Source of the DNA: a virus
Strand: one strand, 5' to 3'
DNA length: 64,000 nucleotides
Virus record (IMG/VR): IMGVR_UViG_3300027714_000008
Location: 34,739 to 98,738 of that record
Positions 11,249 to 32,600 of this stretch are shown here, one piece after another (the stretch's first letter is position 1; each line of letters opens with the position of its first letter). Below the pieces are notes generated by a model. That model was not told the origin of the DNA. It saw nothing but the letters and a program-made list of their open reading frames with translations, and ran no database searches. Position numbers and translations under genes: made by a program.

Positions 11249-11884
11249 TTAATATTGTCCAAATGCCCATTTCTTCTCCTGACAATGATAGCATATTTTA
11301 CATGGTTCTGTGTAATTATTAGTTCTCTCAGCATAATACGTACAAGACCAACTCTCTTTAATATACCTTTCAGGTAAATCTAATTGCTTAAACAAAAGAG
11401 CTATGTCTCGTTTGTCCATATGAGCAAAAGGTCTATAGGTTTTTGCACCAGTTGCATGATGTACTTGATAGATAGTATTAGTCTTATTGACTCTTCTTTC
11501 ATCTTTGTACATACTACCCCAAGTATTAACAATGTTCCATGAAGGTAGTGCAGTAAGGCCAGTTATAATTATTTTTAAATCCTTGTACTTTTCATACATT
11601 TTCTTATCAAAAATACCATGAATTTCATGTTGTTCATTAATACCATCCTCTTCCCAATGAAATACTTCAATTTCTTTTATATTAAGATTTGGATGTTTAA
11701 TTCTTGCATCAGATAAAATACCTTTGGTAATAGATGCAGTGTTTGTAACTCTACTACCAATTGATTGCATAGGAAGGATAGACACATTTGGAGATATTAT
11801 ATCACATATATAAAATAATAAAACCAATGAATCTAATCCACCAGAAATACCAACACCGACCATTCCAGAATCAGGTAAGTCCAT
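11249..11884 (-). CDS. QueC-like PP-loop ATPase
   Basis: SGGLDS PP-loop, RPFAHMDKRDI, and the Zn motif SWSC...PCKICYHC. Confidence 0.75.
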   Translation of the reverse strand: MDLPDSGMVGVGISGGLDSLVLLFYICDIISPNVSILPMQSIGSRVTNTASITKGILSDARIKHPNLNIKEIEVFHWEEDGINEQHEIHGIFDKKMYEKYKDLKIIITGLTALPSWNIVNTWGSMYKDERRVNKTNTIYQVHHATGAKTYRPFAHMDKRDIALLFKQLDLPERYIKESWSCTYYAERTNNYTEPCKICYHCQEKKWAFGQY

Positions 11885-19300: not shown

Positions 19301-20269
19301 AGTTAAACCAGTACCAGCAATAACATTAAGTGTACGATTGGCGGCGATAGTACCACCGCCTGTTAAACCAGTGCCCGCAATAACAGAAACACCTGAGTGA
19401 TCGATATGCTCATTTGCAACAAATCCGCTTAGACTGTCATGTACAATGTCACCATCAGTTGTAGTAATCACACCAGTGCTATCATTGTATGTAATACCAG
19501 TACCACCACTTATAGCGTTCTTAGCGTCACTGTCTGCACGAGCAGTCGTGTAATAAAGGTTACTACCTTCTGTAAGATTAGCTGTAGTGAAAGGACCTAG
19601 TGTAGCAGTTGCAGTAAATGTACCACCATCTGCTGTACCAATTGTTAAGATGCCGTTACTACTATCGTATCCAAATGATGCAACACCTGCAACTGGAAAT
19701 ACTCCAGCAGAGTCTATTAGTCCTTGAGCGTTTACTGTAAATTTTGGAACTAAAGAACCAGAACCATAAGTACCAGCAGTCACACCTGTGTTTGTTATTG
19801 ATATTTTACCAGCGGCAGAGTCGTATGTAATTCCTGTGGAAGCTACTAGCTTGGCTCTTACTTCTGCTACACTAGGACCTGTATATGTTAATACGCCTGT
19901 TGCAGGGACATATGCAAAAGAACCATCTCCACCAGCGTCTGTTAGACTGATTGCGTTCTTTGCATCAGAATCAGCTCTTGCTGTAGTGTAGTATAGATTA
20001 TTACCTTCGCCTAAGTTGGTAGTGCTTTTTGTAGCTATTCGTACATCAAAGGCAGAGTCAACTCTTGATGTTGTATGATACAAATTGCTACTGCCTTCAG
20101 TAATCTCATCTGTATTATCCTTTGATGCTATTTGTGTAGCAACGTATGCTTGCGTAGCAACTGGAAGGTTTGCCTGAGTTATAATGCCACTTACGTTTAC
20201 TGAACTATCAAACGTTGAAGGTCCTTTGACTGTAATGCCATTCTTAACTATAAAATTCTTGTCTGCCAT
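16391..20269 (-). CDS. Long tail or neck fibre protein with internal repeats (1292 aa)
   Basis: Gly/Thr/Ala-rich, with three families of internal repeat. Confidence 0.85.
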   Translation of the reverse strand: MADKNFIVKNGITVKGPSTFDSSVNVSGIITQANLPVATQAYVATQIASKDNTDEITEGSSNLYHTTSRVDSAFDVRIATKSTTNLGEGNNLYYTTARADSDAKNAISLTDAGGDGSFAYVPATGVLTYTGPSVAEVRAKLVASTGITYDSAAGKISITNTGVTAGTYGSGSLVPKFTVNAQGLIDSAGVFPVAGVASFGYDSSNGILTIGTADGGTFTATATLGPFTTANLTEGSNLYYTTARADSDAKNAISGGTGITYNDSTGVITTTDGDIVHDSLSGFVANEHIDHSGVSVIAGTGLTGGGTIAANRTLNVIAGTGLTANADNITTNDGQIVHDNLSGFVANEHIDHTGVTITAGAGLTGGGTIAATRTLNIGAGTGVTVNANDIAIGQAVATTDDVTFDVVTATSIAPGFLDYSGIIPAHAEGRVFYDSAFGALAVYNDEAAMTLQVGQEQVTRVYNGSGATILDGKPVYYVGVQGTTPTIGLANGSNADHYEVSGLATHDIENGTFGYVTNSGLVNNIDTSSLTANAAVFLGASAGALSSTENSFPNFPITVGRVLTSHASTGQILVELSHDTTQTFRTIGDAHIGTNLVVGNNLTVLGTQVNASTQNINIGGAFNNLNQGDTIGDANTALVTGSGLDDAVLKGHFTDIVNRAFYLAIDSADSAGDSFKFSYDSAFSTVLGENIRINDSAHTLANGISVEFGAVTGHTLNNAWLGSASPINVDTGIFTNRNTGSSGIGHTHVGLFFDVSETKWTFLNAYDSDVSGTINMADSSVTLGIVKAGTFEGALTGELTGNAATATILATPRTIGGVSFNGSANINLAGVNAAGNQNTSGTAAIGTAITATANNTANETVFPTFVDGATGTQGIETDTGLTYNPSSGVLTSLVSAVTEQRFLDSNASNYVGFGQPVSPSANVIWTLPNADGSAGQALVTSGDKTLSWAAAGAVTTADESTNTNFTIKFDAATSGAVTAIKHDTGLTYNPSTGKITATNFTGEVTGNAATATTLATARTIGGVSFNGGANINLAGVNATGNQNTSGSAATLTTARTIGGTSFNGSANIAVGLANTATTLATARTIGGVSFNGSANINLAGVNATGNQNTSGSAATLTTARTIGGTSFNGSANIAVDLSATATALATARTIGGTSFNGTANIDVALAAVATAVTVADESSDTTCFPLFTTGATGELPPKSGSNLTFNSSSGTLTVVNLAASGTVDGRDVAADGTKLDGIESSATADQTAAQILTALRTVDVNGTSGVNAGTLDGQAASHYRINVYNAAGNLLN
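16790..17250 (-). repeat. 195-bp (65-aa) tandem repeat in the fibre gene
   Basis: GCGGCTGAACCAGATGTGTTTTGATTACCAG occurs at 16929 and 17124; ARTIGGxSFNGxANI occurs 5 times, with a further copy near 17750-17860. Confidence 0.9.
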
Positions 20270-20288
20270 GGTTCATTGTCCCCGATGG

Positions 20289-20915
20289 TTATGTGATAAT
20301 TGTTTGGTGGGCTTTAACTAATATTGTATTTGCAGGATTACGTGTAAATTTAACTTCAATTGTGCCTGAGTTATTTGTTACAGCTAAAGATCCTAGATCA
20401 CTATCACCAGTATGTACTATACCATATTCTGTACTTGCTATATTTGTTCCGTCAAATGCAGTCAATATTTTAGAGATTTGTGTCTCTGTAGAACTGCCAT
20501 TGTATGCTGAAATATTAAATTCTATTGCAGTGGATGCACCACCTGTTACATATGATGCAACGATTGTAGCTGATCCGCTTGTTACTGATACACCAACTGG
20601 TTGTGCTTTAACTATACCATTCTTAGTATAAAGAGTGCCAATGTAAGCACCTCTAAATCTTATATCATCTGTGCCAATATCAATCGCATCTGAATCAGAG
20701 GCAAATAATGCACCAGAAATAGTTGCACTATCAAGTGTTTTATTAGTTAGTGTTTGTGCACCCGACGTTGTAACAGATTCAAATCCACCAGCGGTCGAAC
20801 CATTATGTACTCTAATACTATTTAATTGATTATCATATGAGATTTCACCAGCAGCCCCAGTAAAGTTATTATTCTGAGCTGTTGTGCCTCGTCTAAACTG
20901 GACTACTGTAGGCAT
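20289..20915 (-). CDS. Virion/fibre protein with Mtd_N-like N-terminus
   Basis: VQFRRGTTAQ...TGAAGEISYD...RVHNGSTAGG. Confidence 0.7.
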   Translation of the reverse strand: MPTVVQFRRGTTAQNNNFTGAAGEISYDNQLNSIRVHNGSTAGGFESVTTSGAQTLTNKTLDSATISGALFASDSDAIDIGTDDIRFRGAYIGTLYTKNGIVKAQPVGVSVTSGSATIVASYVTGGASTAIEFNISAYNGSSTETQISKILTAFDGTNIASTEYGIVHTGDSDLGSLAVTNNSGTIEVKFTRNPANTILVKAHQTIIT

Positions 20916-20933
20916 TTATTTAATTCCTTATTT

Positions 20934-21419
20934 CTATACACTTGAATCTACGCCAAGATCTATTGTTGCTAACGAACCTACAGGATTCATACATTCAAAT
21001 GTTCCGCCTGTTGAAATTCCAAACGCATCAATTTGACCTGTTGAGTCTACTGTTCCATAATTACCTTCTGGAAAGTTAACTGCTCCAACGCCTGTTATGA
21101 CTGCGTTATCTACATATATTTTATTTACCGCATCATTATTATCAGAAGGCGAAGATAAATTAACAATCCTAAGACTGTTCATGTTTATCTGACCAGTCAT
21201 TGTTCCACCAGATGTGAGCAATGTTTCTGATTGTGCCGAATCTATTTGAGCCTTTATAGCATCAGAATCAGTAAAAAATTTAACTACATTATCGGCATTT
21301 TTATAAAAAAGTCTTCCGTCTTTATAGTTAATAGCCAATTCACCATAGGCCAAATCGCCAACAAGAGGTATCTTGCCAGCCGAATCTGATTTAAGTAATC
21401 TAATCTCTACGTTAGACAA
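20934..21419 (-). CDS. Fibre-associated protein
   Basis: N-terminal IRLLKS..P..L.YGELAINYKDGRLF and an adhesin-like DAVNKIYVD motif. Confidence 0.7.
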   Translation of the reverse strand: MSNVEIRLLKSDSAGKIPLVGDLAYGELAINYKDGRLFYKNADNVVKFFTDSDAIKAQIDSAQSETLLTSGGTMTGQINMNSLRIVNLSSPSDNNDAVNKIYVDNAVITGVGAVNFPEGNYGTVDSTGQIDAFGISTGGTFECMNPVGSLATIDLGVDSSV

Positions 21420-21462
21420 TGTCTATTCTTTTCTTTTTAGTAAAACTATATAATATTAGTTC

Positions 21463-21470
21463 TATTTATA
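21463..21470 (-). promoter_or_regulatory. Late promoter TATAAATA
   Basis: Exact motif in an intergenic gap. Confidence 0.75.
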
Positions 21471-21474
21471 ACGA

Positions 21475-22467
21475 TTAATACTCGCCGCCGTCAACAATAT
21501 TCAAAGTTACACCACCATTAACTACAGTGAATTGAGTATTATCAAAGAAAGCTAAACCTCTTTGCGTGTATGAGGCGTTAAATACATTGATTTTAAACTT
21601 ACCGCTTGATGAATCCAAGTTAAAACCGATAGATGCATCAGCAGTAGTTATCTTTGCTCCTACATCAGAATCGAAACCTAAATATGAACCAGCAAGTGTA
21701 CTCGCTTTAAATGGCGCAAGTGAAAATGACGAGTGTGCTATATTAATTGCAGTCGATCCTGTTGGATCTAGTGTATAGTTATCATACACCTTAAATGTCT
21801 TATCTGTTGCGTCTCTGAACATACCAGTAAACGCAAAACCTGAACTATCTTCTTTGCGTCCAGCCGCATAACCAATATCAATAGAAGCGTTTGGGCTTCC
21901 AGCTGAGTCATTAGAGTTAAGCTTGATGTGATGGTCTGCAAGGTTCAAAGTCTCTGAATTAATAACAGTCTGTGTGCCTGTAACTGTAAGCCCACCTGTA
22001 ATTGTGAGATTTGCCAAAGACAAAGTGTCGTCAATATTAATAGCAACGTTGTTATTAGTTACTACTGTTCTTAAACCATTACCACCCGAAAAAGTTAAAG
22101 TGTCAGCTAGGATTGATACAGAATCAGTTCCAGAGTCGCCAGCCAAAGCAATGTTAGTAGCAACACTTATTTCTCCAGCAGAGTCAAGTCTACCATCCGA
22201 AAGTATTTTTATTTGTGGTATTTTTGTGGCTGAACCATAAGTTCCAGCAGTAACATTAACAGGAGGTAAAGCATCCGAGGCTTCCCATTTGCCAACAGAC
22301 GAATCATACGCAAGAAGGTTGCCGTGTGATGCACCCGAAACATCTACGTCAGATAAACTTGCAAATGATCCACCAGATTGAACAATGCTACGTATTGGTG
22401 CGCCAACAACCACTTTTTTTACTTGAGTTTCATTCAACCCAGCGATTATGACAGTTCTATCAACCAT
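21475..22467 (-). CDS. Fibre-like structural protein
   Basis: VTAGTYGS and LTVTGTQTVINS motifs shared with the long fibre. Confidence 0.75.
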   Translation of the reverse strand: MVDRTVIIAGLNETQVKKVVVGAPIRSIVQSGGSFASLSDVDVSGASHGNLLAYDSSVGKWEASDALPPVNVTAGTYGSATKIPQIKILSDGRLDSAGEISVATNIALAGDSGTDSVSILADTLTFSGGNGLRTVVTNNNVAINIDDTLSLANLTITGGLTVTGTQTVINSETLNLADHHIKLNSNDSAGSPNASIDIGYAAGRKEDSSGFAFTGMFRDATDKTFKVYDNYTLDPTGSTAINIAHSSFSLAPFKASTLAGSYLGFDSDVGAKITTADASIGFNLDSSSGKFKINVFNASYTQRGLAFFDNTQFTVVNGGVTLNIVDGGEY

Positions 22468-22476
22468 AGCTTTGTA

Positions 22477-22833
22477 TTACCTTGTAATCGATGCGTTTAC
22501 GTTAATTCTTCCTTCTAACACTCTTTCAACAATTAACGTAGAAGAGCTATCAAGATACTGTATTTCAGCATCGTAAAGGTATCGACCAGGTTTAAGTATT
22601 TCAGTTTGAGCATTAGTCAAAGAAAGATTTACAATGCCTGATGTCGCAGGGCTTGTAATCACGGCTAAGAAATCGTGGCTATCTGCACTATCAGAATTTA
22701 TTGATCTTTTTAATTTTGCTTTAGCAGAAAAATTAGTTAAATTCTTAGCAGTATCATCTATTGAGTTTACTAAGTGTACTTCAATAGCTACGTCAGTACC
22801 TTGATCTATTTCAATTTCTTCGTATTGTGCCAT
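22477..22833 (-). CDS. Small structural adaptor protein
   Basis: EIDQGTD...LSLTNAQT..LKPGRYLYD...RVLEG, typical of fibre-region proteins in marine T4-like phages. Confidence 0.7.
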   Translation of the reverse strand: MAQYEEIEIDQGTDVAIEVHLVNSIDDTAKNLTNFSAKAKLKRSINSDSADSHDFLAVITSPATSGIVNLSLTNAQTEILKPGRYLYDAEIQYLDSSSTLIVERVLEGRINVNASITR

Positions 22834-22863
22834 GAATGGTACCTTTACTTGTGTTCTTTACAT

Positions 22864-22871
22864 TATTTATA
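22864..22871 (-). promoter_or_regulatory. Late promoter TATAAATA
   Basis: Exact motif overlapping the stop of the glycosyltransferase gene. Confidence 0.7.
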
Positions 22872-23649
22872 ACAAATATTTCCCCATACCAGAATAAAAA
22901 ATAGATTCGTGGCAAGAATTAAATACACAAATAGCTTTACTTTCATCATAAAAAACTAATACTTTACCGATCACAGCTCCACCAGCTGCTAATGTAGACT
23001 CTGTGTCTAATCTAATAAAGTAAGATTTATCTGGATCAATGTGAGGTGTAAGTTTACATCTAAAATACCAATCATCTTCACTTAAACTACAAAAATTAGC
23101 ACTAGGAATTTCATAGCTAAAAAATCTATCAATGCCATGATATAGATTAGTATAAAGTTTTATTGATTTTACAAACTTATTATATAAGTCTTGATTCTCA
23201 TTGTTGTACCAAACCATAATTGAAGAATTGTAATAAGGTTTGGTATGTTTCGAAAACTCCTGAAAATAATCATTAGAATAATCATTTAAACTTTCCTCAA
23301 AAACTTGATCTATTAGAGTTAGTTTATTATGTGACGCTTCATCAAATAGATGATCGATATTATTTTGTATCACTACATCTAAATCTAAATAAAGATTGAC
23401 ACCATCATAATCATTTTGTTTAAACATGGTAAGTTTCCACCACCAAGCTTTTAAATCGAGTCGCGTGTCTAATGAAACAATGCTTATTCTTTCGTCAACA
23501 CCCTCAGAATCTTCTGTATAACAATAAAAGTTAAATGGCAAAGTGATGTTTCTCTCTGCCATTCTATAGAGTCTATTTACATGTTCAGCAGTGAACTTGT
23601 CACCCCATTTAACACATACTACGTTGTGTTCCAAATCTTTTGTACCCAT
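22867..23649 (-). CDS. Glycosyltransferase (GT-A fold)
   Basis: VVCVKWGDKF, WWWKL, LYLDLDVVI (DxD) and YNSSIM motifs. Confidence 0.8.
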   Translation of the reverse strand: MGTKDLEHNVVCVKWGDKFTAEHVNRLYRMAERNITLPFNFYCYTEDSEGVDERISIVSLDTRLDLKAWWWKLTMFKQNDYDGVNLYLDLDVVIQNNIDHLFDEASHNKLTLIDQVFEESLNDYSNDYFQEFSKHTKPYYNSSIMVWYNNENQDLYNKFVKSIKLYTNLYHGIDRFFSYEIPSANFCSLSEDDWYFRCKLTPHIDPDKSYFIRLDTESTLAAGGAVIGKVLVFYDESKAICVFNSCHESIFYSGMGKYLL

Positions 23650-24284
23650 TCTGCTTTGTCCTCAATCATATTGTCGTCATATATGAAATGTACTAGCTTG
23701 ATTTGATCGCCAAACTTCTCTTGAGTTATCAAAGGCTTGTTATAGTAATCGTAGTATTTATTTATTATATCCTTGTTGTTTCTGGACGAACCTTCTGTAT
23801 GAACACCTAACCATTGGCCTGGGAGTTCCTCTATAAAGTAATTAGAATCAGTAACAAAGTTTTGTTCGCCCATTCCCATAATACCAATTAATTTTCCATA
23901 GTGATTAATCCAGAAATCAGGATTAGAATAAAATTTGTCGTAAACGGCAAGTTGATTATAACCAGGATTAATTTTATAAAACCCACCATTATATTTACAA
24001 CCACTGTTTTTCCACCATCTTGGAAACGCTCCAATATGATTTTCTACAATGTCATAGTTGAATAGTTCATCTAGGCTTCCATTAACAATAATATCTATGT
24101 CCATAACAATGCAAGGATCTTGGCGTTTAAAAAAAGATATTTTATCCCAATGACCATTAGGGCAATCAGTCTTTACAATAAAGTTAAAATCGCCAGAATA
24201 ATTCCTAGCTATGCCATTTTGTAAATTGTCAATATATTTTGAGCTATACTTTTCACCGAAATGTGTTACGCATATATCAATCAT
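23619..24284 (-). CDS. Glycosyltransferase (GT-A fold)
   Basis: FGEKYS, HWDKI, MDIDII (DxD), NGGF, GEQNF and LVHF motifs. Confidence 0.75.
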   Translation of the reverse strand: MIDICVTHFGEKYSSKYIDNLQNGIARNYSGDFNFIVKTDCPNGHWDKISFFKRQDPCIVMDIDIIVNGSLDELFNYDIVENHIGAFPRWWKNSGCKYNGGFYKINPGYNQLAVYDKFYSNPDFWINHYGKLIGIMGMGEQNFVTDSNYFIEELPGQWLGVHTEGSSRNNKDIINKYYDYYNKPLITQEKFGDQIKLVHFIYDDNMIEDKAEWVQKIWNTT

Positions 24285-24985
24285 TCAATGCCTATTTCTT
24301 CTAGTACGTCTTCCCAAAAGCCTTTACTTGTTTGATCAAATACATAAGACACTGTAAATCTCCAACAATCAGTAGAAGCCATATGATACACCAAGTTTTC
24401 AGGACCATCTTCATATGATCCAAAGTAAAAGGCTTTAGCTTGCCAACCCACTTTATCTTTTACTAAAACTTCTTCACCAGTTTTAGGATCTACATGTTTC
24501 CAATACCCATCACCAGTTTCAGACCAAGTTAAAACTATATTGTAACTTGGTGCGTTTGCATTATTATGCCAACCAATGTAGCCACCAGGAGGGTACACAG
24601 CCGCCAAAGCATTAGATCTAGTGCTTAAAATAGAAGACAACTTTTTATTAAGCCTTATGTAGTTGTCATTAAAGTATTTCTCTTTGATTTTATCATCGTC
24701 TGTCCTTGGAGTTCTATCCCAATAATCAGATGTTTTTACTTGCTTAAATGTATACCCATAAAGACATTCAGGATAACCATCGTGGTCTTTATAATCAGCC
24801 ATGATTTTCTTTTTGTATGCGTCACTTATATTTTCTTCACGTTTGTTTTTTTCGTTGTTTGCATTTATAAGATAAGCATGTTTTTTAAAAGATTCTAAAT
24901 CGTTATACCAAAGGTCTTTAAACTCATTGAGTGTATCAAGAACTTCGTTATTAACAATGTTAACACTTGTCATAGTCTTTGTCAT
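24281..24985 (-). CDS. 2OG-Fe(II) oxygenase-like protein
   Basis: YPPGGYIGWHNN...YH...RFTVS jelly-roll pattern. Confidence 0.6.
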   Translation of the reverse strand: MTKTMTSVNIVNNEVLDTLNEFKDLWYNDLESFKKHAYLINANNEKNKREENISDAYKKKIMADYKDHDGYPECLYGYTFKQVKTSDYWDRTPRTDDDKIKEKYFNDNYIRLNKKLSSILSTRSNALAAVYPPGGYIGWHNNANAPSYNIVLTWSETGDGYWKHVDPKTGEEVLVKDKVGWQAKAFYFGSYEDGPENLVYHMASTDCWRFTVSYVFDQTSKGFWEDVLEEIGIE

Positions 24986-24988
24986 TCT

Positions 24989-25732
24989 TCAATACCGATC
25001 ATATTTTTCTATTAAACCGCTGTAGTGTTGGATTATAACACCTTTCTCTGGCTTTGTAAACCCTTTAATTTCATACGTCATATACCAATTCCATCTCTCA
25101 CCATCTTCAAAGGAACCTACTTTAAGATCTTTATAATAAGGGTGTTCCTCTGTTAAAAACCATAAAGTGAATTGATCGAATTGACGTAATACTTCTGGAT
25201 GCAAATCAAAATCTTGTTTACCATCTTTATATGCAGGCCACCAATTTCCAGCAAATTGATTGCGGTAATATTCGTTCCACATTTTCATAAAACTTTGAAC
25301 TATAGGTTTTCTAATATCATAAAGAACTATGCCACCACAAAGTTTCATTTCTCCACCACGCCACTTACGAATTGCAAACAAAGAATCTTTGTCCACAGGC
25401 AAATCAACAAAGGCTATGTCGTTTCCTTTAAGTTGATCAAATGCAAACTCAATATCTTCATGTATGATTTCTACGTCAGCGTCAACATACATTGTAATAT
25501 CAAAAGGAGTCTTATCTAAAGCCCATAGCTTTTCTCTTACATGGTCACCGCAATATATTAAGTGGTCCGCAATAGATTCGCGCCCATCACAGAAAGCTTC
25601 CTCTGTAACAAGACAAACTTTAGCGTCTGGATAGTTATCTCTAATAGAATTTATTGCGTTTATAGCTAAATCAAAAAACCTAGGTTTAGTAGATGCTACA
25701 AGTAAAAACCCTTTAGTCGGTTCCGTTTTCAT
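24989..25732 (-). CDS. Glycosyltransferase (nucleotide-diphospho-sugar transferase)
   Basis: AINSIR, TPFDITMYVDAD (DxD), DQFTLW, RWN and IQHY motifs. Confidence 0.75.
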   Translation of the reverse strand: MKTEPTKGFLLVASTKPRFFDLAINAINSIRDNYPDAKVCLVTEEAFCDGRESIADHLIYCGDHVREKLWALDKTPFDITMYVDADVEIIHEDIEFAFDQLKGNDIAFVDLPVDKDSLFAIRKWRGGEMKLCGGIVLYDIRKPIVQSFMKMWNEYYRNQFAGNWWPAYKDGKQDFDLHPEVLRQFDQFTLWFLTEEHPYYKDLKVGSFEDGERWNWYMTYEIKGFTKPEKGVIIQHYSGLIEKYDRY

Positions 25733-26183
25733 TATTTAATACTTCCATCACAATCATCATACAATATACATTAACTTCAACGACGTTTTGAGCTTTTCTT
25801 AATTTAGATTTTAAAACTCTATTAGTAGAATTTTTAATAGCGTCTATCTCGAAAGCAGAAATCTTAGCTTCAAATAGTTGTTGAAGGTCTTTTGCTCTTG
25901 CTCTTTCTAATCTTGCTTGTTCTGCTTCAGTGCGTTCAACTAATTTCTTTTCGTTACGTTCGTTAGTGTTGGCAGTGATTGCTTCAAAAGTTATAGCATC
26001 AAGAACTTCTTTAAAGTCTGGATTTTCATTTCCATCAACATCAAATTTATTTACAGTAAGTTGTTGAGTAGTAGAATTTTCATTCTCATCGACAATCGTT
26101 AAAATTGTTGTTATTCTATTTTGATCATAACTTTCCCAAAAGGACTTTTTATCCCAAGTGCGATTATTCATAGTATTCTCCAT
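25713..26183 (-). CDS. Hypothetical protein, possible fibre chaperone
   Basis: 156-aa ORF with a C-terminal coiled coil, overlapping the GT gene. Confidence 0.7.
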   Translation of the reverse strand: MENTMNNRTWDKKSFWESYDQNRITTILTIVDENENSTTQQLTVNKFDVDGNENPDFKEVLDAITFEAITANTNERNEKKLVERTEAEQARLERARAKDLQQLFEAKISAFEIDAIKNSTNRVLKSKLRKAQNVVEVNVYCMMIVMEVLNNENGTD

Positions 26184-26219
26184 TACTTTTAATTATATAT
26201 ATCAGTTATTATAACACAT

Positions 26220-27425
26220 TTAAGCTTTACGTACATACAAAGTATATGTTTCAATTGTACCAACGCCAGAACCAATAGTTTCGCCTGCATAGTTACCAGT
26301 ATAAGCACCAGTGTAGTTGCCAACGTAGTTACCAGTATAAGCACCAGTGTAGTTGCCAACATAGTTACCAGTATAAGCACCAGTGTAGTTACCAACATAG
26401 TTACCAGTAAACGTTGCCGCACCTAAGAAGTTTGCCACATACTGGAATTGTTGACCACCGCCTTCATAATAAATAACTGTACGCACTCTTTGAAAGTTTG
26501 CACCATTTGGATTTACATAACCTGCTGAGTAAGTACCAGCATAAGTACCAGAATAATCTGCTGAGTAAGTAGCTGAGTAAGTACCAGAATAATCTGCTGA
26601 GTAGGTACCAGCATAAGTCCCAGAATAATCTGCTGAGTAGGTTACATCTGAAGTTGTTTTCTTTGTATCTGTTGCTGTACCTTGTGCTTGCCAAGTTCCA
26701 GTTGCAGATGGTACACCATTAGCAGATGATCTTAATTGATATGCACCAACATTATTTGCCGCCGCCATTGTGTACTTTCGTAACCAAGTACCGAATGTAT
26801 GTTTAATTTCTGCATCGTCCATTTCTTGTAGACCATCGAAGCTTGAATCGTCATTTTTTATCTTGACAGGACGAACTGCTGTAGGAGCCGTCATTGTTTG
26901 ACGTTGCCAAATACTATGTGTGATTGTGCTACCATTTGATGCTTGTGTGTCAGTAAAGACGTCTGCCAAATGTTCGTCGTAATCTGAACCAGGAGTAGAC
27001 GAGGCTAACTTGTAAGTGCCTGGATAATTGCCTGCGAATACCACAGCAGACAAACGAGCTAAAAGCGTATTCATATTTGCATCTGTGAATTCATCTGTTG
27101 CGGTGTTATCATCATCCCACGTTATAGGTCTGTGAAAATCGCCACCATTAGTTGCTACAGAACCAGACTTTTGAAATAGAACTGTATTAGTTGTACCTGT
27201 ACTGATACCAGAACCTGGATGTGTGCCAATTGCTTGGTTGAAGAATGTGTTTGAGTACGTTCCTATATTAGTAGAACTTGAATTAGATGTTGTTAAAGCG
27301 GCTACAGCAGTTTGAGCTTGTGCGGCAAGATGTAATCCAGCTTGATACGAAAGATATGCTTCCTCAGTCGTGGTCATCTCTTTCAAGTTACCATTGGTAT
27401 CACTTAATTTAATTGGGACACTCAT
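26220..27425 (-). CDS. Virion protein with two Tyr-periodic repeat arms
   Basis: 401 aa containing (YSAD/YSGT/YAGT)n and (YTGN/YVGN/YTGA)n arrays. Confidence 0.85.
   Translation of the reverse strand: MSVPIKLSDTNGNLKEMTTTEEAYLSYQAGLHLAAQAQTAVAALTTSNSSSTNIGTYSNTFFNQAIGTHPGSGISTGTTNTVLFQKSGSVATNGGDFHRPITWDDDNTATDEFTDANMNTLLARLSAVVFAGNYPGTYKLASSTPGSDYDEHLADVFTDTQASNGSTITHSIWQRQTMTAPTAVRPVKIKNDDSSFDGLQEMDDAEIKHTFGTWLRKYTMAAANNVGAYQLRSSANGVPSATGTWQAQGTATDTKKTTSDVTYSADYSGTYAGTYSADYSGTYSATYSADYSGTYAGTYSAGYVNPNGANFQRVRTVIYYEGGGQQFQYVANFLGAATFTGNYVGNYTGAYTGNYVGNYTGAYTGNYVGNYTGAYTGNYAGETIGSGVGTIETYTLYVRKA
26280..26639 (-). repeat. Two 12/36-bp-period tandem arrays (26280-26411 and 26508-26639)
   Basis: Repeated TAGTTACCAGTATAAGCACCAGTG and CCAGAATAATCTGCTGAGTA units. 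Confidence 0.9.
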
Positions 27426-27435
27426 CTTTTATTCC

Positions 27436-27756
27436 TTATGTGTTCAGTAAAGTACCAGCTGCGTTATACACATTTGGTAATCGTCTATTCAACTCATTAA
27501 CAGAGCTTACCAGCGATGTTTTGTTTGTAGTAGTCAAAGATGCCAATGAAAGAACTCCACCACTATCACCATAAAAATTAGTCCTTAATGATAATACATC
27601 ACTATCAACATCTGAGTGGACTTTATTAACAGCAACAACAAGTGATGTTGCAGAGTCCGTCAAAGATGTAAGATCACCTTGCAATATTCCAAGTTGATTT
27701 GTTTTATCTCTCCAACTAGCAATTGTAGTTGAAAGATCAACGTTGATTAATGACAT
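27436..27756 (-). CDS. Small fibre/adaptor protein
   Basis: TTIASWRDKTN N-terminus, KTSLVSSVNEL, and a C-terminus shared with the long fibre. Confidence 0.75.
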   Translation of the reverse strand: MSLINVDLSTTIASWRDKTNQLGILQGDLTSLTDSATSLVVAVNKVHSDVDSDVLSLRTNFYGDSGGVLSLASLTTTNKTSLVSSVNELNRRLPNVYNAAGTLLNT

Positions 27757-27757
27757 G

Positions 27758-27973
27758 TCATAACTTCTCTATAATCTGGCTTAACATCATTTTAATATCT
27801 TTTACATCACTTTTAAGCTGGTTAATTTCTTCCCTTTCAGCCGCCTTAGTCTCTCTTTGGTTTACCCTGAGGTTCTTAATGCGATTGATCTCAGTGCTAT
27901 TTATATTAATTATAGCACCTGTATTTTTATCTCTTGCTAATCCGCTATGACCTTCTACCTTCACTAAATCCAT
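27758..27973 (-). CDS. Conserved small coiled-coil protein
   Basis: VKVEGHSGLARDKNTGAIIN...EINQLKSDVKDIKMML. Confidence 0.75.
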   Translation of the reverse strand: MDLVKVEGHSGLARDKNTGAIININSTEINRIKNLRVNQRETKAAEREEINQLKSDVKDIKMMLSQIIEKL

Positions 27974-29574
27974 TATGTGCCTAATGCAATAGTTCTTAAC
28001 GCTTTAAATCTAGGTACGTCTGTTGACGATGTTGAACGCATTACTATTTTAATTTGGTAAGTAGTAAATGGTGCAAGGTCTCCTTGATATGTTCCACCTA
28101 TGACATATTTATACTCTCTGAATACGTTATAATTTGTATCAATAGGAAGCGTATTATGATTTGAATCAGGTTCTACTTTTGATGCCTCTATCCAAGCAGT
28201 GTCTTCAATGCTTACGTCACCACCAGCATCTAACACTTTATAGAAAAGATCAAAGTCTGTACCCTGAGGTCTATTGACATCAACAAGGACTTTAATACCA
28301 GTTGCAGGTTCAGCTAATAAAACAGGTATTGATATGTGTTTAGCCAAGGTAGATCCAAAGTTTGCAACTGTCTCAGCTACATAGCTTAATGGGACGTTAA
28401 ATCCAGTTGTTGCCGCTGAATCTGGATTATCAATAATGTTGTGGACTGATATAACAGAAGCTCTTTGTAAGTCTACAGAAGGAGCCGCATATGAACTTGT
28501 TGTCACTAACTCCAAATCAATAGTATAAGAAGACCTAGTAAGGGCTGTGTCTCTAACAGCAGTCGCAATAACAGCTGGAGAATTTAAGAACGTATCCATT
28601 TTGTTTGCTGTTGCGTGTTTAGGTAAAGTCCCATAAGCAGTTTCACCACCACCAAAAGATTTAGAAGTTGTTAGACCAGCTACCATGCGATGATTTGTGC
28701 CATTTGGTTGAAGTATTTCAATATTAGGCTTAAAGCTATCTATGATATATTGTTGTGTAGCAAGGATGCTATTACCACCACCGAATATAGCTGAGTCTGC
28801 CGAACTGTCCATTTCAAATTTATAGCCAGTACCATCAATGTGAGTAACAGCTCTTGATCCTAAGATACTTGCACCTAAAACACCATTGATGCTAGTAGCA
28901 GAATCTAACCCACTTGAGTCAGAAGATATATGTACGACGTCATTTACTTGAAAGCCGTGGTTAGGATGTGCAACAGTAACAGTTGCATCACTTGCCGCAA
29001 ATAGAAACGGATTACTTGTTAATGATTTTACAGGTGGCGGAGCCGCATTAAATCTTACTAATGCGTTAGTGCCTGTGAAGTTGGCTCTATATACTTTAAA
29101 AGTTAAATCACGAGTCTGATCCGCTTCAAATACTCTACCATTAGCAGACTTAAAGAATATGCCTGCGTATGGATCTGTTTGAAGTCTTTCTGTTGTTGAA
29201 CCTAGTTTGAAGTCACCTAACTTAGCAGTCCACACTTGATATGCATTACCAAGAGCATTTGATTGTATGCAAATAGCAAAGTCTTTGCCACCTTCAAGGT
29301 ATACTGGTTCTTCAAAAGTGAAAGTTGTTTCTGTAGCCGCTGTAGCAGACACAGTTATGTCACTTGCCGCTTTAAAAGAGACACTGTTTTCGATTATCTT
29401 ACTAGAATCAGGAACACCATTAACAGTAGGTCTTATACTAAGTTGAACAGGATAGTCTGCATCTGCCGCTTTAGTTGCAAAATAGATACCTATTTTAGTT
29501 ATGTATATTCCTGAAACCTGATTGACCCTAAACGTTTGGGCAATCGGTTGGATTAATTCAGAAGTAGATGACAT
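27973..29574 (-). CDS. Virion structural protein (VrlC-like C-terminal part)
   Basis: QPIAQTF, GIYITKIGIYF, FEEPVYL and FQIKIV-like/VPRFKALRTIA motifs. Confidence 0.75.
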   Translation of the reverse strand: MSSTSELIQPIAQTFRVNQVSGIYITKIGIYFATKAADADYPVQLSIRPTVNGVPDSSKIIENSVSFKAASDITVSATAATETTFTFEEPVYLEGGKDFAICIQSNALGNAYQVWTAKLGDFKLGSTTERLQTDPYAGIFFKSANGRVFEADQTRDLTFKVYRANFTGTNALVRFNAAPPPVKSLTSNPFLFAASDATVTVAHPNHGFQVNDVVHISSDSSGLDSATSINGVLGASILGSRAVTHIDGTGYKFEMDSSADSAIFGGGNSILATQQYIIDSFKPNIEILQPNGTNHRMVAGLTTSKSFGGGETAYGTLPKHATANKMDTFLNSPAVIATAVRDTALTRSSYTIDLELVTTSSYAAPSVDLQRASVISVHNIIDNPDSAATTGFNVPLSYVAETVANFGSTLAKHISIPVLLAEPATGIKVLVDVNRPQGTDFDLFYKVLDAGGDVSIEDTAWIEASKVEPDSNHNTLPIDTNYNVFREYKYVIGGTYQGDLAPFTTYQIKIVMRSTSSTDVPRFKALRTIALGT

Positions 29575-29616
29575 TTATTAGTCCTTTAAGTGTTTTTACC
29601 ATAATTTTTTAGTTTA

Positions 29617-32600
29617 TTAATCCCACTTGGTGCTGTAATGTGCTGCAGCTTTGACAGCATCATACTTATCTGTACCGCCTATCTCACCATCATCATAACT
29701 GGCCCCATTTCCAGCAAAATCACGATGGTCGTTATCGCCAGAACTAGTGTTGTTGTAACTAGGATCTTGTGTAGTTTGAACTGTTGTTTGAATAGCGTGC
29801 CTTCTAGTGTGTTTAATATCTTCTTGATAATGTTGCATAGTACCAGTTGAAACAAAGTCAGACGATGCGTATGATGTTGCGTTAACTCTATTTAGCTCAC
29901 TAATATCTATAAGCGTAAATTGTCTTGTTCCTGTTAAGAATTTAGTTGCATTCTTATTTGGCACAAAGATAATACCTTCAATTGCACCATTAGCATCTGA
30001 TAATATGGATGCAGTCTTACCGCCTAAAGTAGGTGGGAATTCTGTTTCATTGATGTACTTATCACCAGGATCAAGATAATTAGAATTAGTCGCTTGTGCC
30101 GCAAAGTATTGGAACTTTCCTGAACCTGTTTGAACAAAAGCAGAAATATCAGTTTCGTCATAGAATGGGAAGTAACGAGTATTAGGTCTCAAGCCTTGCG
30201 CTTTAAAGAATATAAATCGTTCTCTTTGGTATTGAATAGATGTTTCATAAAGTATTTCGTCTGCCATTGATGTCACGACTGTTTCACTCTTGACAATTGT
30301 ACTTGTTACAGTAGAAGTCGTTCGACCATTCTTTGAAGTCTTACTTTCAGAGTAACCGGCTTTTAATGAATCTGCTTGTACACCTGACCAGTTAAAGCCC
30401 CAATCATTCCACAAGGAAGTGTTTGCTGGGTCTAGCTTTGTTCCGCCGTCAACAATCTTAGCAGGTAAACGAGAGGTGTCGAACCATGTATCAGTAGATG
30501 GTGACATTTTAATATGCCCAATAGTCACACCTAAGTTAAATGCGTTTACTGATGTTGCACTGGATGCCTGAGTATTTGAAGCATATACAACTTCTTCATA
30601 AAGAGGGTATACTGTATCGCCTATTAAGGACACACGATCAGAAGCATCAGAGTCATAAACAAGTTCAGAACTGTTTGCAACAAATGATGGTCTTAATTCT
30701 CTATTGAATACATCAGTAGATGCACGATAATCTAATGCAGTTCTTAAACTTTGTGAGTGGTCTGTAAAGTTGTCGGCAGTTAGGCCAACTTTTAGACGAT
30801 TAACACCAGCCGAGTCAAGAACTTCTAAAGTAGCAGTTTCTAGCTCAAGCATGTTTAATGTAGTAATTTCTTCAATCTTGTCCATACGTGTTTCAAGATC
30901 AGATATATCTCTCATAGTGTAACGTCTGTTATCAACATACGTCATAGATACATCGCTATCATTCAATGTGTAAGGATTTATAGATAGTCTAGCAAGTTCC
31001 ATTGCATTATCAGGAACGGATGGGTGTATAGGAAATAATGACCTTTCACCAGCAACCGCTTCAAATGTGCCTGCTTTATTCAATACAATTCTGTAACCTT
31101 GACCAAGATAGTAAGCAATGTCTGTAGTAATAAGATCAGTGTTAGCTGGAATTTCTACAGTTACCGCACCAGTTGAAGTAAAGTCAGATGCAGTGTTAGC
31201 ACGTAAAGGTCTAAAGTCTAATACGTCTCTTAAAGAAACAGTCTCACCATTCTTTTGTCTGTATGATGGAATGTCTTCATATTCAACTTGACCAGTGTAA
31301 GAATTTACAGCAAAGAAGTCTCCGCCAGCTCCGTGTGCAAAGTGATCAAAGTTAACATAAACATCACCGCTTGGAGCAGAAAAGCCAGCACGTAATGTTA
31401 GAATGCCTTCCGAATAGAAGTTATCTCTTTGTCCATTGTCAAGTACATAATAGTCTGTAATGACATTACCAGCAGATGTAGCATCTCGTACTTCATTAAT
31501 TCTAAATATGTCACCACGCTCTAGCTGAACTGTGTCGTCACTTTCAGGAGAAATAGTAGCCGTTCTATTTGTTAATGCTTTAGTTTTTACTGTGGCAGCA
31601 CCTTTGTTGACATAGGCTAACAATGAAACAGCAGAAGATTTTTGAAGCGTTCCTAATGTAACACCTGTAGTTCCGTTACCACCAGCAGTCACAGTAATCG
31701 CACTTTCTACACCAGAAGAATCTGTTGATAGTAACCAATTTGTAGAGTTGGCAAAAGTCTCGCCTGTTGCAGACAATGAAAGAGCCAATGTAGCGTTAGC
31801 CGCTGCAGTACCAGTGAAACGTCTTTGTGTCGTCAATGATATGTCAGTTATGGCAGAAGGTCTGATACCTGATAAAGGGAACAATAAGTTATTATTAGAA
31901 GTGTCTTTTATTACAGCAACACTATTTTCAAGAACAAGATCAGCATAGTTAGTAGTGCTAAGACCTATACTTCTAACAGCACTAAACTGTTTAGCCGAAG
32001 CCATTACAACATCAAAGATGTATATTCTATAATACAAACCAAATTTCTCAATAGACCTTATTCTAGCCGTACCAATAGTTGCACCACCATGAGTAACAGC
32101 CGATCTTAAATTGACATTAGCCATAGTTGTAATGTTTGGCAAGCCTAACTTAGTCAAAGATAAAATGTAATTACCATACTCTGAGGCAACAACATCATTG
32201 TTTACTGTAGTAGTTGTTCTTGGCTTGTCAATAGGAATTCGTATTGGGTTATAAGATTCGAACCTTTTACCTTTTACATAAGCAATACCAGCATTGATTG
32301 TTATATCAAGTTTAGTTGCATCAGAATCGTTGGCTTGGGTTTTTATTATGAATGGCTTAACTGTATAGTTACCAGACTCTTCGAATGTCCTTTGAGCCAA
32401 GATGTCGCCTACGACACTCAAGCTCCTATCACCAGCAGACTTAACAGCCGCCATTAATCCATTGACAATATCAAAGGATGGAATGAATGTAGTACCAGCA
32501 GAAACATTAGCTTGTAATGCCAGTGCTAATGTAATCTTATATCTGTCTGCACCAGGAGCAGTCAAGTTTGGTGTGTCTGTTGAATTGTCGTAAAGTGCAG

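What the first reader, a model, noticed from the sequence alone, without database searches (positions are those of the whole stretch)
22867..26183. Five-gene modification cassette (three GTs, oxygenase, unknown) inside the fibre module
Seen: tightly packed, mostly overlapping genes, AT-richer than their neighbours, wedged between structural genes. Three carry DxD motifs (DLD, DID, DAD). They are not near DNA-metabolism genes, so a protein or virion target is more likely than DNA glucosylation or host LPS (inference). A stepwise pathway of priming, extension and hydroxylation is plausible.
Basis: partly seen in the sequence, partly recalled or inferred. Interest (0 to 1): 0.8.

Follow-up and report, generated by a model that had tools for sequence, protein, structure and literature searches.

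The report
Fibre-linked glycosyltransferase and oxygenase-like gene cassette
In a widespread uncultured marine T4-like phage, a sugar-transferase, an unusual oxygenase-like protein and a small unknown protein travel with one tail-fibre gene, and two extra sugar-transferases are add-ons, which suggests the fibre is chemically decorated.

Summary
The five minus-strand ORFs are real, tightly coupled and AT-rich: GC is 0.326 against 0.369 for the window. They sit in the late structural block.

They are not one unit. E-D-C is a conserved trio. D lies next to C in 80 of 81 related loci, and E in 77 of 81. The trio is co-inherited with the preceding fibre gene, the G401 family: 30 loci have both, 31 neither, 1 trio only, 0 G401 only, of 62. 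A and B are optional inserts, present in 10 and 4 of 81 loci.

- D is a GT8-like GT-A transferase (hhalign 90.4%).
- B and A are weaker GT8-like paralogues.
- C matches AlkB-like 2OG oxygenases only moderately (36-81%). It carries an invariant HxN where HxD is expected.
- E has no known relative.

The structure predictor was closed, so no fold was checked.

Best reading (0.4): the trio matures or glycosylates the G401 fibre. Rivals are host-surface remodelling, as published for pelagimyophage fibre-region transferases, then non-catalytic assembly factors, then nucleic-acid modification.

First readers of this scan noted the same enzyme pair on another genome; those notes are unchecked.

The parts
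22867..23649 (-). A: optional GT-A glycosyltransferase with an invariant DLD. Paralogue of B.
   Evidence: phrog_1962 matches at 2.6e-9. hhalign gives A against B 96.3% and A against GT8 24.7%, with the DxD columns aligned. D89 and D91 are kept in 21 of 21 relatives. A is present in 10 of 81 C-seeded loci.
23619..24284 (-). B: optional GT8-like glycosyltransferase with DID.
   Evidence: phrog_1962 matches at 3.2e-5. PF01501 scores 19.6 bits, below its 24.3 cut-off. hhalign against GT8 gives 76.5%; GT2 and GT25 give 0.3% or less. B is present in 4 of 81 loci.
24281..24985 (-). C: AlkB-like double-stranded beta-helix candidate with Y131-x2-G-x5-H140-x-N142 ... H201 ... R209.
   Evidence: No Pfam, PHROG, NCBIfam or PDB hit. 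hhalign against PF13532 references gives 80.7% with 10 sequences and 36.5% with 37. Controls give 0.1-0.2%.
24989..25732 (-). D: core GT8-like GT-A glycosyltransferase with invariant D84-A-D86 and H236.
   Evidence: hhalign against GT8 gives 90.4%, E 1.4e-6, over 201 columns. GT2 gives 50.1% and GT25 0.2%. D lies next to C in 80 of 81 loci.
25713..26183 (-). E: small protein of unknown fold. It has an N-terminal W..FWE domain, a charged helix and a conserved basic C-terminal helix.
   Evidence: It matches phrog_27823, of unknown function, at 6.7e-5. Pfam and PDB give nothing. hhalign against DUF4376 gives 0.3%. E is present in 77 of 81 loci.
26220..27425 (-). G401: fibre-module protein with tyrosine-rich repeats. 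The E-D-C trio is co-inherited with it.
   Evidence: The ORF just upstream of E is a G401 homologue in 71 of 77 loci. Of 62 F118-seeded loci, 30 have both trio and G401, 31 neither, 1 trio only and 0 G401 only.
22477..22833 (-). F118: small fibre-adaptor-like protein immediately downstream of the cassette.
   Evidence: phrog_1084 matches at 8.4e-19 and phrog_3304 at 4e-16. F118 is downstream of C in 78 of 81 loci. About half of F118-seeded loci lack the trio.
22864..22871 (-). T4-type late-promoter-like TATAAATA just upstream of F118, overlapping the stop codon of A.
   Evidence: One search finds 18 matches in the window against 8.04 +/- 2.56 expected; 15 are on the minus strand. None lies inside 22872-26183.
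27898..27905 (-). Nearest late-promoter-like TATAAATA upstream of the cassette on the coding strand.
   Evidence: Terminator-like sites are not above chance between it and the cassette: 6 found against 5.2 expected.
25032..25060 (-). Sigma-70-like site (TTTACA-17-TATAAT with TG, 11 of 12) inside the 3' end of D, 47 nt before the C start codon.
   Evidence: It is the best match in 20000-30000, but such sites are only slightly above chance there: 49 found against 39.6 +/- 6.6 expected. Conservation in relatives was not checked.

Best explanation
The cassette is composite. Its core is a three-gene unit:
- E, a small coiled-coil protein.
- D, a GT8-like GT-A glycosyltransferase that keeps the DxD and the C-terminal His.
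- C, an AlkB-like double-stranded beta-helix protein that keeps both His and the Arg but always has Asn where the iron-binding Asp should be.

This trio is inherited together with the fibre gene just upstream (the G401 family). It is read as part of the late structural operon.

The most likely role is maturation of that fibre protein in the infected cell. D would transfer a sugar from a host nucleotide-sugar onto the fibre. C would act on the same substrate, by hydroxylation with an atypical metal site or by another reaction. E would act as a helper or adaptor. A and B are two related GT8-like transferases. They were inserted at a transferase hot spot just upstream of the F118 adaptor gene and would extend or vary the glycan in a minority of phages.

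Shown: the gene order, the co-inheritance, the GT8-likeness, and the conserved residues.

Inferred: the substrate, the order of steps, whether C is catalytic, and late timing.
For: Synteny:
- Of 81 loci seeded on C (80 IMG/VR loci plus phage C48C1), D is adjacent in 80, E in 77 and F118 in 78, always in the order G401-E-D-C-[B,A]-F118.
- The ORF ending 17-143 nt before E (one overlaps it by 12 nt) is a G401 homologue of about 370 to over 2500 aa in 71 of 77 loci.
- Of 62 loci seeded on F118 that have 6 kb of upstream sequence, 30 have both trio and G401, 31 neither, 1 trio only and 0 G401 only.

Enzyme features:
- D against GT8 references: 90.4%, E 1.4e-6, 201 columns, with the DxD and the C-terminal His aligned. 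GT2 gives 50.1%, GT25 0.2% and reversed decoys 0.4%.
- D84, D86 and H236 are invariant in 41 of 41 sequences.
- C keeps Y131, W139, H140, N142, W181 and H201 in 56 divergent relatives of 25-35% identity, and R209 in at least 90%.
- C aligns to AlkB-like references with H to H, N to D, H to H and R to R.

Operon setting:
- The genes are co-oriented and overlapping.
- TATAAATA is enriched upstream of minus-strand structural genes, and none lies inside the cassette.
- RNA-library contigs from three studies cover parts of B, C, D, E and G401 and bridge the A/B, B/C, C/D and D/E junctions. This is weak evidence, because DNA carry-over is not excluded.

Precedents:
- AspH is an active 2OG hydroxylase that lacks the carboxylate ligand (PMC10915816, abstract read).
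- Phage-encoded transferases glycosylate mycobacteriophage virions (Freeman et al. 2023). I saw only the title, as reference 61 of PMC12801897. The content is recalled.
Against: - No structure could be predicted, so the folds of C, D and E rest on profile comparisons alone.
- C's match is moderate. It fell from 80.7% to 36.5% when the AlkB reference grew from 10 to 37 sequences. It is 3.4% against P4H-like and 1.4% against AspH-like references.
- The canonical HxD is absent.
- C has paralogues outside the fibre module, beside ThyX and gp41-like genes and after gp23. None of them has a D-like neighbour.
- About half of F118-type fibre regions lack the trio.
- The co-inheritance is not shown to be phylogenetically independent. 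There is 1 independent pair on supported branches and 7 on all branches of a short F118 tree.
- GT8 enzymes are best known from lipopolysaccharide synthesis. The one paper that describes fibre-region GT8 genes in marine T4-like phages reads them as host O-chain modifiers (PMC7029224, passages read).
- Nothing shows that any virion protein of these phages is glycosylated.
Confidence: 0.4

Rival explanations
1. Host-surface remodelling. The transferases modify the host's lipopolysaccharide, O-chain or capsule during infection. This would block superinfection by competing phages or keep progeny from re-adsorbing to lysing cells.
For: - All three transferases are closest to GT8 among the three families tested.
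- PMC7029224 reports GT8 as the commonest transferase family in pelagimyophages, often inside the fibre 'host recognition cluster', and proposes O-chain modification (passages read).
- A and B behave like mobile accessory genes. They are the most AT-rich part apart from E (A 0.301, B 0.327). They occur in only 10 and 4 of 81 loci.
- Their distant relatives lie elsewhere, including on the opposite strand next to F118.
Against: - D is not variable. It is fixed next to C and co-inherited with one fibre gene.
- It sits in a run of overlapping late structural genes with no late-promoter-like motif of its own.
- No sugar-nucleotide synthesis, flippase or membrane protein genes are in the block.
- This reading gives no role to C or E.
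Confidence: 0.25
2. Non-catalytic assembly factors. E, D and C are enzyme-derived chaperones or scaffolds needed to fold or attach the G401 fibre, comparable to the fibre chaperones encoded just after fibre genes in many phages.
For: - They lie immediately downstream of the fibre gene and are strictly co-inherited with it.
- C lacks the canonical metal-binding Asp.
- E is a small, largely helical protein. Its only named look-alikes are weak tail-assembly-type clusters (XkdW 0.79, DUF4376 0.77, Phage_tail_APC 0.77).
Against: - D keeps every residue expected of an active GT8 enzyme in 41 of 41 sequences.
- C keeps two His and the Arg across relatives of 25-35% identity.
- E shows no profile relation to DUF4376 (0.3%).
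- C paralogues work in non-fibre contexts.
Confidence: 0.15
3. Nucleic-acid modification. C oxidises or repairs a base in the manner of AlkB or TET/JBP, and D glycosylates the product. This would protect phage DNA or RNA from host defences.
For: - C's best profile match is to AlkB-like PF13532 proteins.
- One source names a relative 'alkylated DNA repair dioxygenase AlkB' (P0093).
- One C paralogue lies beside ThyX-, gp41- and UvsX-like genes (my reading of the translations).
- Pairs of an oxygenase and a glycosyltransferase that hypermodify phage DNA are known. This is recalled and was not checked here.
Against: - The copy paired with D is always the fibre-module one. The replication-module and head-module paralogues have no D-like neighbour.
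- The block is in the late structural operon.
- The iron-binding Asp is missing.
- GT8-like enzymes are not the known DNA glucosyltransferase folds (recalled).
Confidence: 0.08

Closest known systems
Glycosyltransferases in the 'host recognition cluster' of pelagimyophages (Zaragoza-Solas et al. 2020, PMC7029224; passages read)
   Same: Both are marine T4-like phages with glycosyltransferases among the tail-fibre genes, and GT8 is the prevailing family.
   Different: The paper treats these genes as variable auxiliary genes for host O-chain modification. Here one GT8-like gene (D) is fixed in a trio and co-inherited with a particular fibre gene. The passages read do not mention the C or E families. 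The paper's supplementary tables could not be opened and may list these clusters. The five related records searched lack psbA, and only one has S21, so the host group is unknown.
Virion glycosylation by mycobacteriophage-encoded glycosyltransferases (Freeman et al. 2023; title seen as reference 61 of PMC12801897; content recalled; paper not held)
   Same: Phage transferase genes sit beside structural genes and are thought to decorate virion proteins.
   Different: The phage lineage, the transferase families and the targets (capsid and tail tube) differ. There is no oxygenase-like partner. Glycosylation is shown experimentally there and not here.
Hydroxylase plus glycosyltransferase pairs acting on structural proteins (collagen lysyl hydroxylase with its glycosyltransferases, Skp1 prolyl hydroxylase with Gnt1, mimivirus L230; all recalled)
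   Same: A 2OG-oxygenase-fold protein is coupled to a GT-A transferase next to a repetitive fibrous substrate.
   Different: C lacks the HxD triad and resembles AlkB-like proteins more than P4H-like ones (36-81% against 3.4%). D does not resemble GT25 (0.2%). The fibre has tyrosine-rich tetrads, not collagen triplets.
AlkB / 2OG-FeII_Oxy_2 (PF13532)
   Same: Both have Y-x2-G-x5-H, a distal His, then Arg-x-Thr/Ser, in the same order and register.
   Different: Asn replaces the metal-binding Asp in every member. The distance from His to Arg is 8 residues. No member reaches the Pfam cut-off: 2 of 56 match weakly at E 0.15.
AspH, a 2OG hydroxylase with only two protein ligands to iron (PMC10915816, abstract read)
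   Same: It shows that loss of the carboxylate ligand need not abolish hydroxylase activity.
   Different: No detectable profile relation to C (1.4%). AspH has a water ligand held by a second-sphere Asp, whereas C has Asn at the ligand position.
GT8 protein glycosyltransferases such as glycogenin (recalled)
   Same: A retaining GT-A fold with DxD and a C-terminal His. These enzymes can glycosylate protein side chains, including tyrosine.
   Different: The relation rests only on a remote profile match to bacterial GT8 references. Donor and acceptor are unknown.

Membership tests
GT8 (Pfam PF01501), for D | Scores above the family's curated cut-off. | tested here: not met
   D has no Pfam family at E up to 1. 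None of 41 relatives matches PF01501. The commonest weak hits are Glycos_transf_2 in 9 of 41 and Nucleotid_trans in 2 of 41.
GT8 (Pfam PF01501), for D | Full-length profile similarity to GT8 domains, and better than to other GT-A families. | tested here: met
   hhalign gives 90.4%, E 1.4e-6, over 201 columns against 25 bacterial GT8 domains. GT2 gives 50.1%, GT25 0.2% and the reversed decoy 0.4%.
GT8 (Pfam PF01501), for D | A DxD metal and nucleotide-sugar motif plus a C-terminal His. | tested here: met
   D84, D86 and H236 are invariant in 41 of 41 sequences. They align to the GT8 DxD and to the 'H-F/Y-x-G' position.
GT8 (Pfam PF01501), for D | Retaining sugar transfer from a nucleotide sugar. 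| not testable with these tools
   This needs an enzyme assay.
GT8-like GT-A, for A and B | Family-level hit and a conserved DxD. | tested here: inconclusive
   phrog_1962 matches A at 2.6e-9 and B at 3.2e-5. B scores 19.6 bits on PF01501, below the 24.3 cut-off. hhalign against GT8 gives B 76.5% and A 24.7%; A against B gives 96.3%. The DxD is invariant in 21 of 21 for A and 3 of 3 for B.
Fe(II)/2-oxoglutarate oxygenase superfamily, for C | Double-stranded beta-helix fold. | not testable with these tools
Fe(II)/2-oxoglutarate oxygenase superfamily, for C | Sequence or profile membership in a known 2OG family. | tested here: inconclusive
   No Pfam hit for C. Members matching PF13532: 0 of 43 and 2 of 56 weakly, at E 0.15. 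hhalign against PF13532 references gives 80.7% with 10 sequences and 36.5% with 37. PF13640 gives 3.4% and PF05118 1.4%. Decoys give 0.1-0.2%. Known 2OG families compared with each other give 0.8-92.8% in the same set-up.
Fe(II)/2-oxoglutarate oxygenase superfamily, for C | The HxD/E...H iron-binding triad. | tested here: not met
   H140 and H201 are invariant, but position 142 is Asn in 43 of 43 and 56 of 56 sequences. It is also Asn in the paralogue on the phage's own contig.
Fe(II)/2-oxoglutarate oxygenase superfamily, for C | A basic residue that binds 2-oxoglutarate, about 8-10 residues after the distal His. | tested here: met
   R209 is invariant in A1 and present in at least 90% of A3, followed by T211. 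It aligns to the Arg of the AlkB-like 'R-x-N-L-T-F-R' stretch.
Tail-fibre assembly chaperones (DUF4376, PF14301), for E | Profile similarity. | tested here: not met
   hhalign gives 0.3% against 15 DUF4376 proteins. No such Pfam family appears among the first 25 of 46 families listed for the 36 members. The Atlas scores of 0.77-0.79 are below the level of a usable lead.
T4-type late gene | Transcription from a TATAAATA late promoter, or read-through from one. | tested here: inconclusive
   The motif is enriched, 18 found against 8.04 expected, 15 of them on the coding strand. Sites lie at 27898-27905 upstream and at 22864-22871 at the downstream end, with none inside the cassette. There are no timing data. 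The RNA-library contigs do not give strand or time.

The most novel reading that the evidence does not exclude
C founds an uncharacterised branch of the 2-oxoglutarate-oxygenase fold that uses a His-Asn-His site. It has two to three paralogues per genome in abundant marine T4-like phages. The fibre-module copy works with the GT8-like D and with E as a dedicated system that hydroxylates and glycosylates the tyrosine-rich G401 fibre. This would be the first tail-fibre post-translational modification pathway in the T4 superfamily, with A and B diversifying the glycan and so the host range.
Probability: 0.2. Interest if true: 0.8.

Novelty: new variant of a known kind. Interest (0 to 1): 0.55.

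Why it matters
Near-identical copies of this stretch occur in marine metagenomes of at least ten studies from 2017 to 2025. The C family spans 621 clusters at 50% identity. Even so, C, D and E match no Pfam family within cut-off. C and D match no PHROG family, and E matches only a family of unknown function.

If the trio decorates a receptor-binding fibre, glycan variation would be an unrecognised way for ocean phages to tune host range, stability or escape from decoys. That would revise the published view that fibre-region transferases of marine T4-like phages only remodel the host surface.

The invariant HxN protein family is also a defined biochemical target: does it bind iron and turn over 2-oxoglutarate? 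All of this can be tested with recombinant proteins and with one GenBank phage record that carries the trio, C48C1.

Tried and rejected
Searches that gave nothing usable:
- Direct family and structure-sequence searches for C, D and E gave no significant hit. These covered Pfam, NCBIfam and PHROGs, PDB with single sequences and profiles, and per-member Pfam scans.
- The PDB 'Transposase' hit for E (E 6e-4) lies in a charged helix. I set it aside as compositional.
- DNA search of GenBank phages found only a 91-bp match. Protein searches found C and D only in phage C48C1.
- A first profile comparison of C with three phage P4H-like proteins found nothing. Widening that reference from viral contigs gave only 5 loci. 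I then built references from bacterial genomes.
- E against DUF4376 was negative.
- No longer, fused forms of C were found, which is weak evidence.
- Nothing was found in print on C48C1 or its accession.
- One literature search for an Asn ligand in 2OG oxygenases ('asparagine ligand' together with 2-oxoglutarate, facial triad and double-stranded beta-helix) listed no paper holding that phrase. This is no proof that none exists.

Checks that were inconclusive:
- Host group. psbA is absent from all 5 related records searched, S21 is in 1 of 5 and Asp_Arg_Hydrox in 1 of 5. The host remains unknown.
- RNA libraries. Only short contigs were laid, with no strand or timing. The stretches without cover (for example 22420-23439) mean nothing.
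- The phylogenetic independence of the trio/G401 co-occurrence could not be shown. There was 1 pair on supported branches.
- Loci with an A homologue tend to have the most tyrosine-rich G401 tails: 0.15-0.18 of the last 130 residues, with one exception at 0.11. These loci represent only two or three lineages, so I did not pursue this.
- I did not check whether the sigma-70-like site before C is conserved in relatives.

Full report
**What the window is.** The window is part of a 98,738-base IMG/VR virus record, estimated 59% complete. PHROG matches place the region in the structural block of a T4-like myophage, all on the minus strand. The matches include:
- portal, sheath, large terminase, and neck and head-completion proteins
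- a 1292-aa tail fibre
- baseplate wedge proteins
- two large phrog_358 structural proteins

The only GenBank phage with homologues of the central genes is 'Phage C48C1', an unclassified member of Kyanoviridae. None of five related records carries psbA, including one that is 93% complete. The host is therefore unknown. Fifteen DNA runs from ten of the 13 listed studies (the other three are RNA studies), dated 2017-2025, hold 98-99% of the sampled words of the stretch 21400-27500. Any of these may include the source sample.

**The observation.** I call them A to E:
- A: 22867-23649
- B: 23619-24284
- C: 24281-24985
- D: 24989-25732
- E: 25713-26183

Three of the four junctions overlap, and the fourth is a 3-nt gap. 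The block's GC is 0.326, against 0.369 for the window and 0.38-0.40 for the flanking fibre genes. That places it in the lowest 0.7% of equally long windows.

The three DxD motifs are present. A bare DxD is expected by chance, and all five proteins have at least one. The motifs count only because they are invariant in relatives and align to the DxD of GT8 references.

**The anatomy is composite.** I collected 80 IMG/VR loci that encode a C homologue, the best 80 of 522, and added C48C1. I then located homologues of all neighbouring window proteins in them. Counts out of 81 loci:
- D lies directly upstream of C in 80.
- E is present in 77.
- The 118-aa protein F118 lies downstream in 78.
- A is present in 10.
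- B is present in 4.

Several loci are near-duplicates from different samples: there are 58 distinct C proteins among 79. In C48C1 the order is giant protein, E, D, C, F118, with A and B absent.

The ORF that ends just before E is a homologue of G401, the window's 401-aa tyrosine-rich protein. This holds in 71 of 77 loci. Of the other six, four have a different ORF there and two are at a contig edge. The length of this ORF ranges from about 370 to more than 2500 residues.

To avoid seeding on C, I repeated the survey from F118, taking the best 80 of 572 loci. Among the 62 loci with the full 6 kb of upstream sequence:
- 30 have both the trio and G401
- 31 have neither
- 1 has the trio only
- 0 have G401 only

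The trio therefore belongs with G401, not with F118. On a tree of the short F118 protein the trio needs at least 7 changes of state, against a mean of 20.7 for shuffled labels. Only one independent pair sits on supported branches, so independence of the co-occurrence is not demonstrated.

Relatives of A and B often sit just upstream of F118 even where the trio is absent (5 of 31 such loci), and some are on the opposite strand. More distant A relatives lie elsewhere altogether. That position looks like an insertion hot spot for transferases.

**The transferases.** Instead I built reference alignments of known families from bacterial genomes and compared profiles with hhalign, using reversed alignments as decoys. 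hhalign probabilities:

| Family | vs GT8 | vs GT2 | vs GT25 |
|---|---|---|---|
| D | 90.4% (E 1.4e-6, 201 columns) | 50.1% | 0.2% |
| B | 76.5% | 0.3% | 0.1% |
| A | 24.7% | 0.2% | 0.4% |

- The D alignment runs from the N-terminal nucleotide-binding strand through the DxD to the C-terminal His. Decoys give 0.4%.
- D84, D86 and H236 are invariant in 41 of 41 relatives.
- A and B are homologous to each other (96.3%).
- PHROGs calls both A and B 'glycosyltransferase' (phrog_1962).
- None of the three reaches a Pfam cut-off. They are GT8-like, not certified GT8 members.

**The 'oxygenase'.** C belongs to a large viral family with no Pfam domain:
- 412 clusters at 90% identity in the word-indexed search
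- 621 representatives at 50% identity with E at or below 0.001

One member is named AlkB by its source. Across 56 divergent relatives the invariant residues are Y131, W139, H140, N142, W181 and H201, and R209 is kept in at least 90%. The spacing Y-x2-G-x5-H-x-N, then H-x7-R-x-T, is the register of the 2OG-oxygenase core, but with Asn in place of the iron-binding Asp.

hhalign of C against reference families:

| Reference | Probability | Notes |
|---|---|---|
| AlkB-like PF13532, 10 sequences | 80.7% | E 1.3e-5 |
| AlkB-like PF13532, 37 sequences | 36.5% | E 3.7e-4, 109 columns; H to H, N to D, H to H, R to R |
| P4H-like PF13640 | 3.4% | same register |
| AspH-like PF05118 | 1.4% | |
| Decoys and unrelated families | 0.1-0.2% | |

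Bona fide 2OG families compared with each other in the same set-up give 0.8% to 92.8%. I read this as probable membership of the fold, at about 0.75. The defining triad is tested and not met. The AspH case shows that a missing carboxylate does not rule out catalysis (PMC10915816, abstract).

**Paralogues of C.**
- The phage's own contig has a second copy of C, 28% identical and also HxN. By my reading of the translations it lies beside genes that look like ThyX, gp41 and UvsX.
- Four related contigs have three copies each: one in the fibre module, one just after the gp23 region of the head module, and one in the replication module.
- Only the fibre copy has a D-like neighbour.
- Three of these contigs are filed in bacterial MAGs of unrelated phyla. 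They are most likely mis-binned phage contigs.

**E.** E has a conserved N-terminal W..FWE segment, a charged helical middle and a strongly conserved basic C-terminal helix. It matches only a PHROG of unknown function. Pfam and PDB give nothing credible. The Atlas's nearest named clusters are tail-assembly-type families at 0.77-0.79, which is below the level of a usable lead. A direct profile test against DUF4376 was negative.

**Expression.**
- The T4-type late motif TATAAATA occurs 18 times against 8.0 expected, 15 of them on the coding strand and mostly just upstream of structural genes.
- One site sits at the A stop codon just before F118, and another 1.7 kb upstream of E. None is inside the cassette.
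- Terminator-like sites are at chance level.
- Read-through from the late operon is therefore the simplest reading, but it is an inference.
- A sigma-70-like site, 11 of 12 matches, lies 47 nt before C. I did not follow it up.
- Metatranscriptome libraries of three studies contain short, nearly identical contigs over parts of B, C, D, E and G401. Some bridge gene junctions. The tool warns that DNA can be present in such libraries and that contigs give no strand or level.

**What is known.** Zaragoza-Solas et al. describe a large 'host recognition cluster' in pelagimyophages. In it, tail-fibre genes are mixed with glycosyltransferases, GT8 being the commonest family. The authors propose host O-chain modification to prevent co-infection (PMC7029224, passages read). 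The general observation is therefore in print with a different interpretation. I could not open that paper's supplements. Virion glycosylation by phage transferases is known for mycobacteriophages (title seen, content recalled).

What I did not find in those passages, or in my searches, is the fixed E-D-C unit, its co-inheritance with one fibre family, or the HxN protein family. First-stage notes of this scan record the same enzyme pair next to fibre genes in another genome, and the HxN feature on this one. They are unchecked notes, not independent evidence. A follow-up on the neighbouring G401 protein reads it as a tyrosine-zipper hairpin fibre. I did not test that.

**Verdict.**
Three GT8-like transferases and fibre linkage hold. 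'Oxygenase' holds only as a probable fold with an atypical site. The five-gene stepwise pathway should be replaced by a conserved fibre-linked trio plus two optional transferases.
- The best explanation is maturation or glycosylation of the G401 fibre (0.4).
- The rivals are host-surface remodelling (0.25), non-catalytic assembly factors (0.15) and nucleic-acid modification (0.08).
- Novelty: a new variant of a known kind.
- Interest: 0.55.

Noticed in passing
own contig G000:C1:14842-15513 (outside the window, about 20 kb before its start): A second copy of the C family, 28% identical and also HxN, lies in the replication region next to genes that look like ThyX, gp41 helicase and UvsX by their translations.
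   Followed up: partly
L224:6005-6652 and L226:5803-6450 (records G003 and G005): A third C-family paralogue sits in the head module, between homologues of window genes 1726-2286 and 1266-1709 and just after the gp23-like gene. The window's own phage has no copy at that spot.
   Followed up: partly
L090-L095 (contigs JAAXIF010000028.1, JAYQEC010000001.1, CBFHZN010000007.1): Contigs of 70-142 kb filed in MAGs of Sphingobacteriales, Porticoccaceae and Microbacteriaceae carry one to three C-family genes each. They look like T4-like phage contigs binned into bacterial genomes.
   Followed up: no
L252, L255, L265, L268, L269, L291, L305 (region just upstream of the F118 homologue): In fibre regions that lack the E-D-C trio, A-like or B-like transferase genes still lie upstream of F118, in five loci directly next to it, and several are on the opposite strand. 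This looks like a recurrent insertion hot spot for glycosyltransferases.
   Followed up: partly
L080:1-5472: This is a variant locus. The G401 homologue is followed directly by C with no room for E or D. About 4 kb of mostly opposite-strand small ORFs then separate C from F118.
   Followed up: no
window 26220-27425 and homologues in L002, L056, L059-L061, L064, L071: Loci that carry an A-type transferase tend to have the most tyrosine-rich C-terminal 130 residues in the G401 homologue: 0.15-0.18 against 0.02-0.15 elsewhere, with one exception at 0.11. These loci represent only two or three lineages.
   Followed up: no
window 11249-11884: A 211-aa ORF between the large terminase and the sheath gene gives a weak QueC-like PHROG hit (phrog_1550, E 2e-6) over its C-terminal 77 residues.
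   Followed up: no
window 41113-42678: A 521-aa protein next to the baseplate hub and lysozyme gene carries an amidase or endolysin-type domain at residues 347-493 (phrog_822, E 3.6e-27).
   Followed up: no
window 25032-25060 (minus strand): The best sigma-70-like site of the region (TTTACA-17-TATAAT with TG) lies inside the end of D, 47 nt before the C start codon. It might give C, B and A expression independent of the late operon.
   Followed up: no
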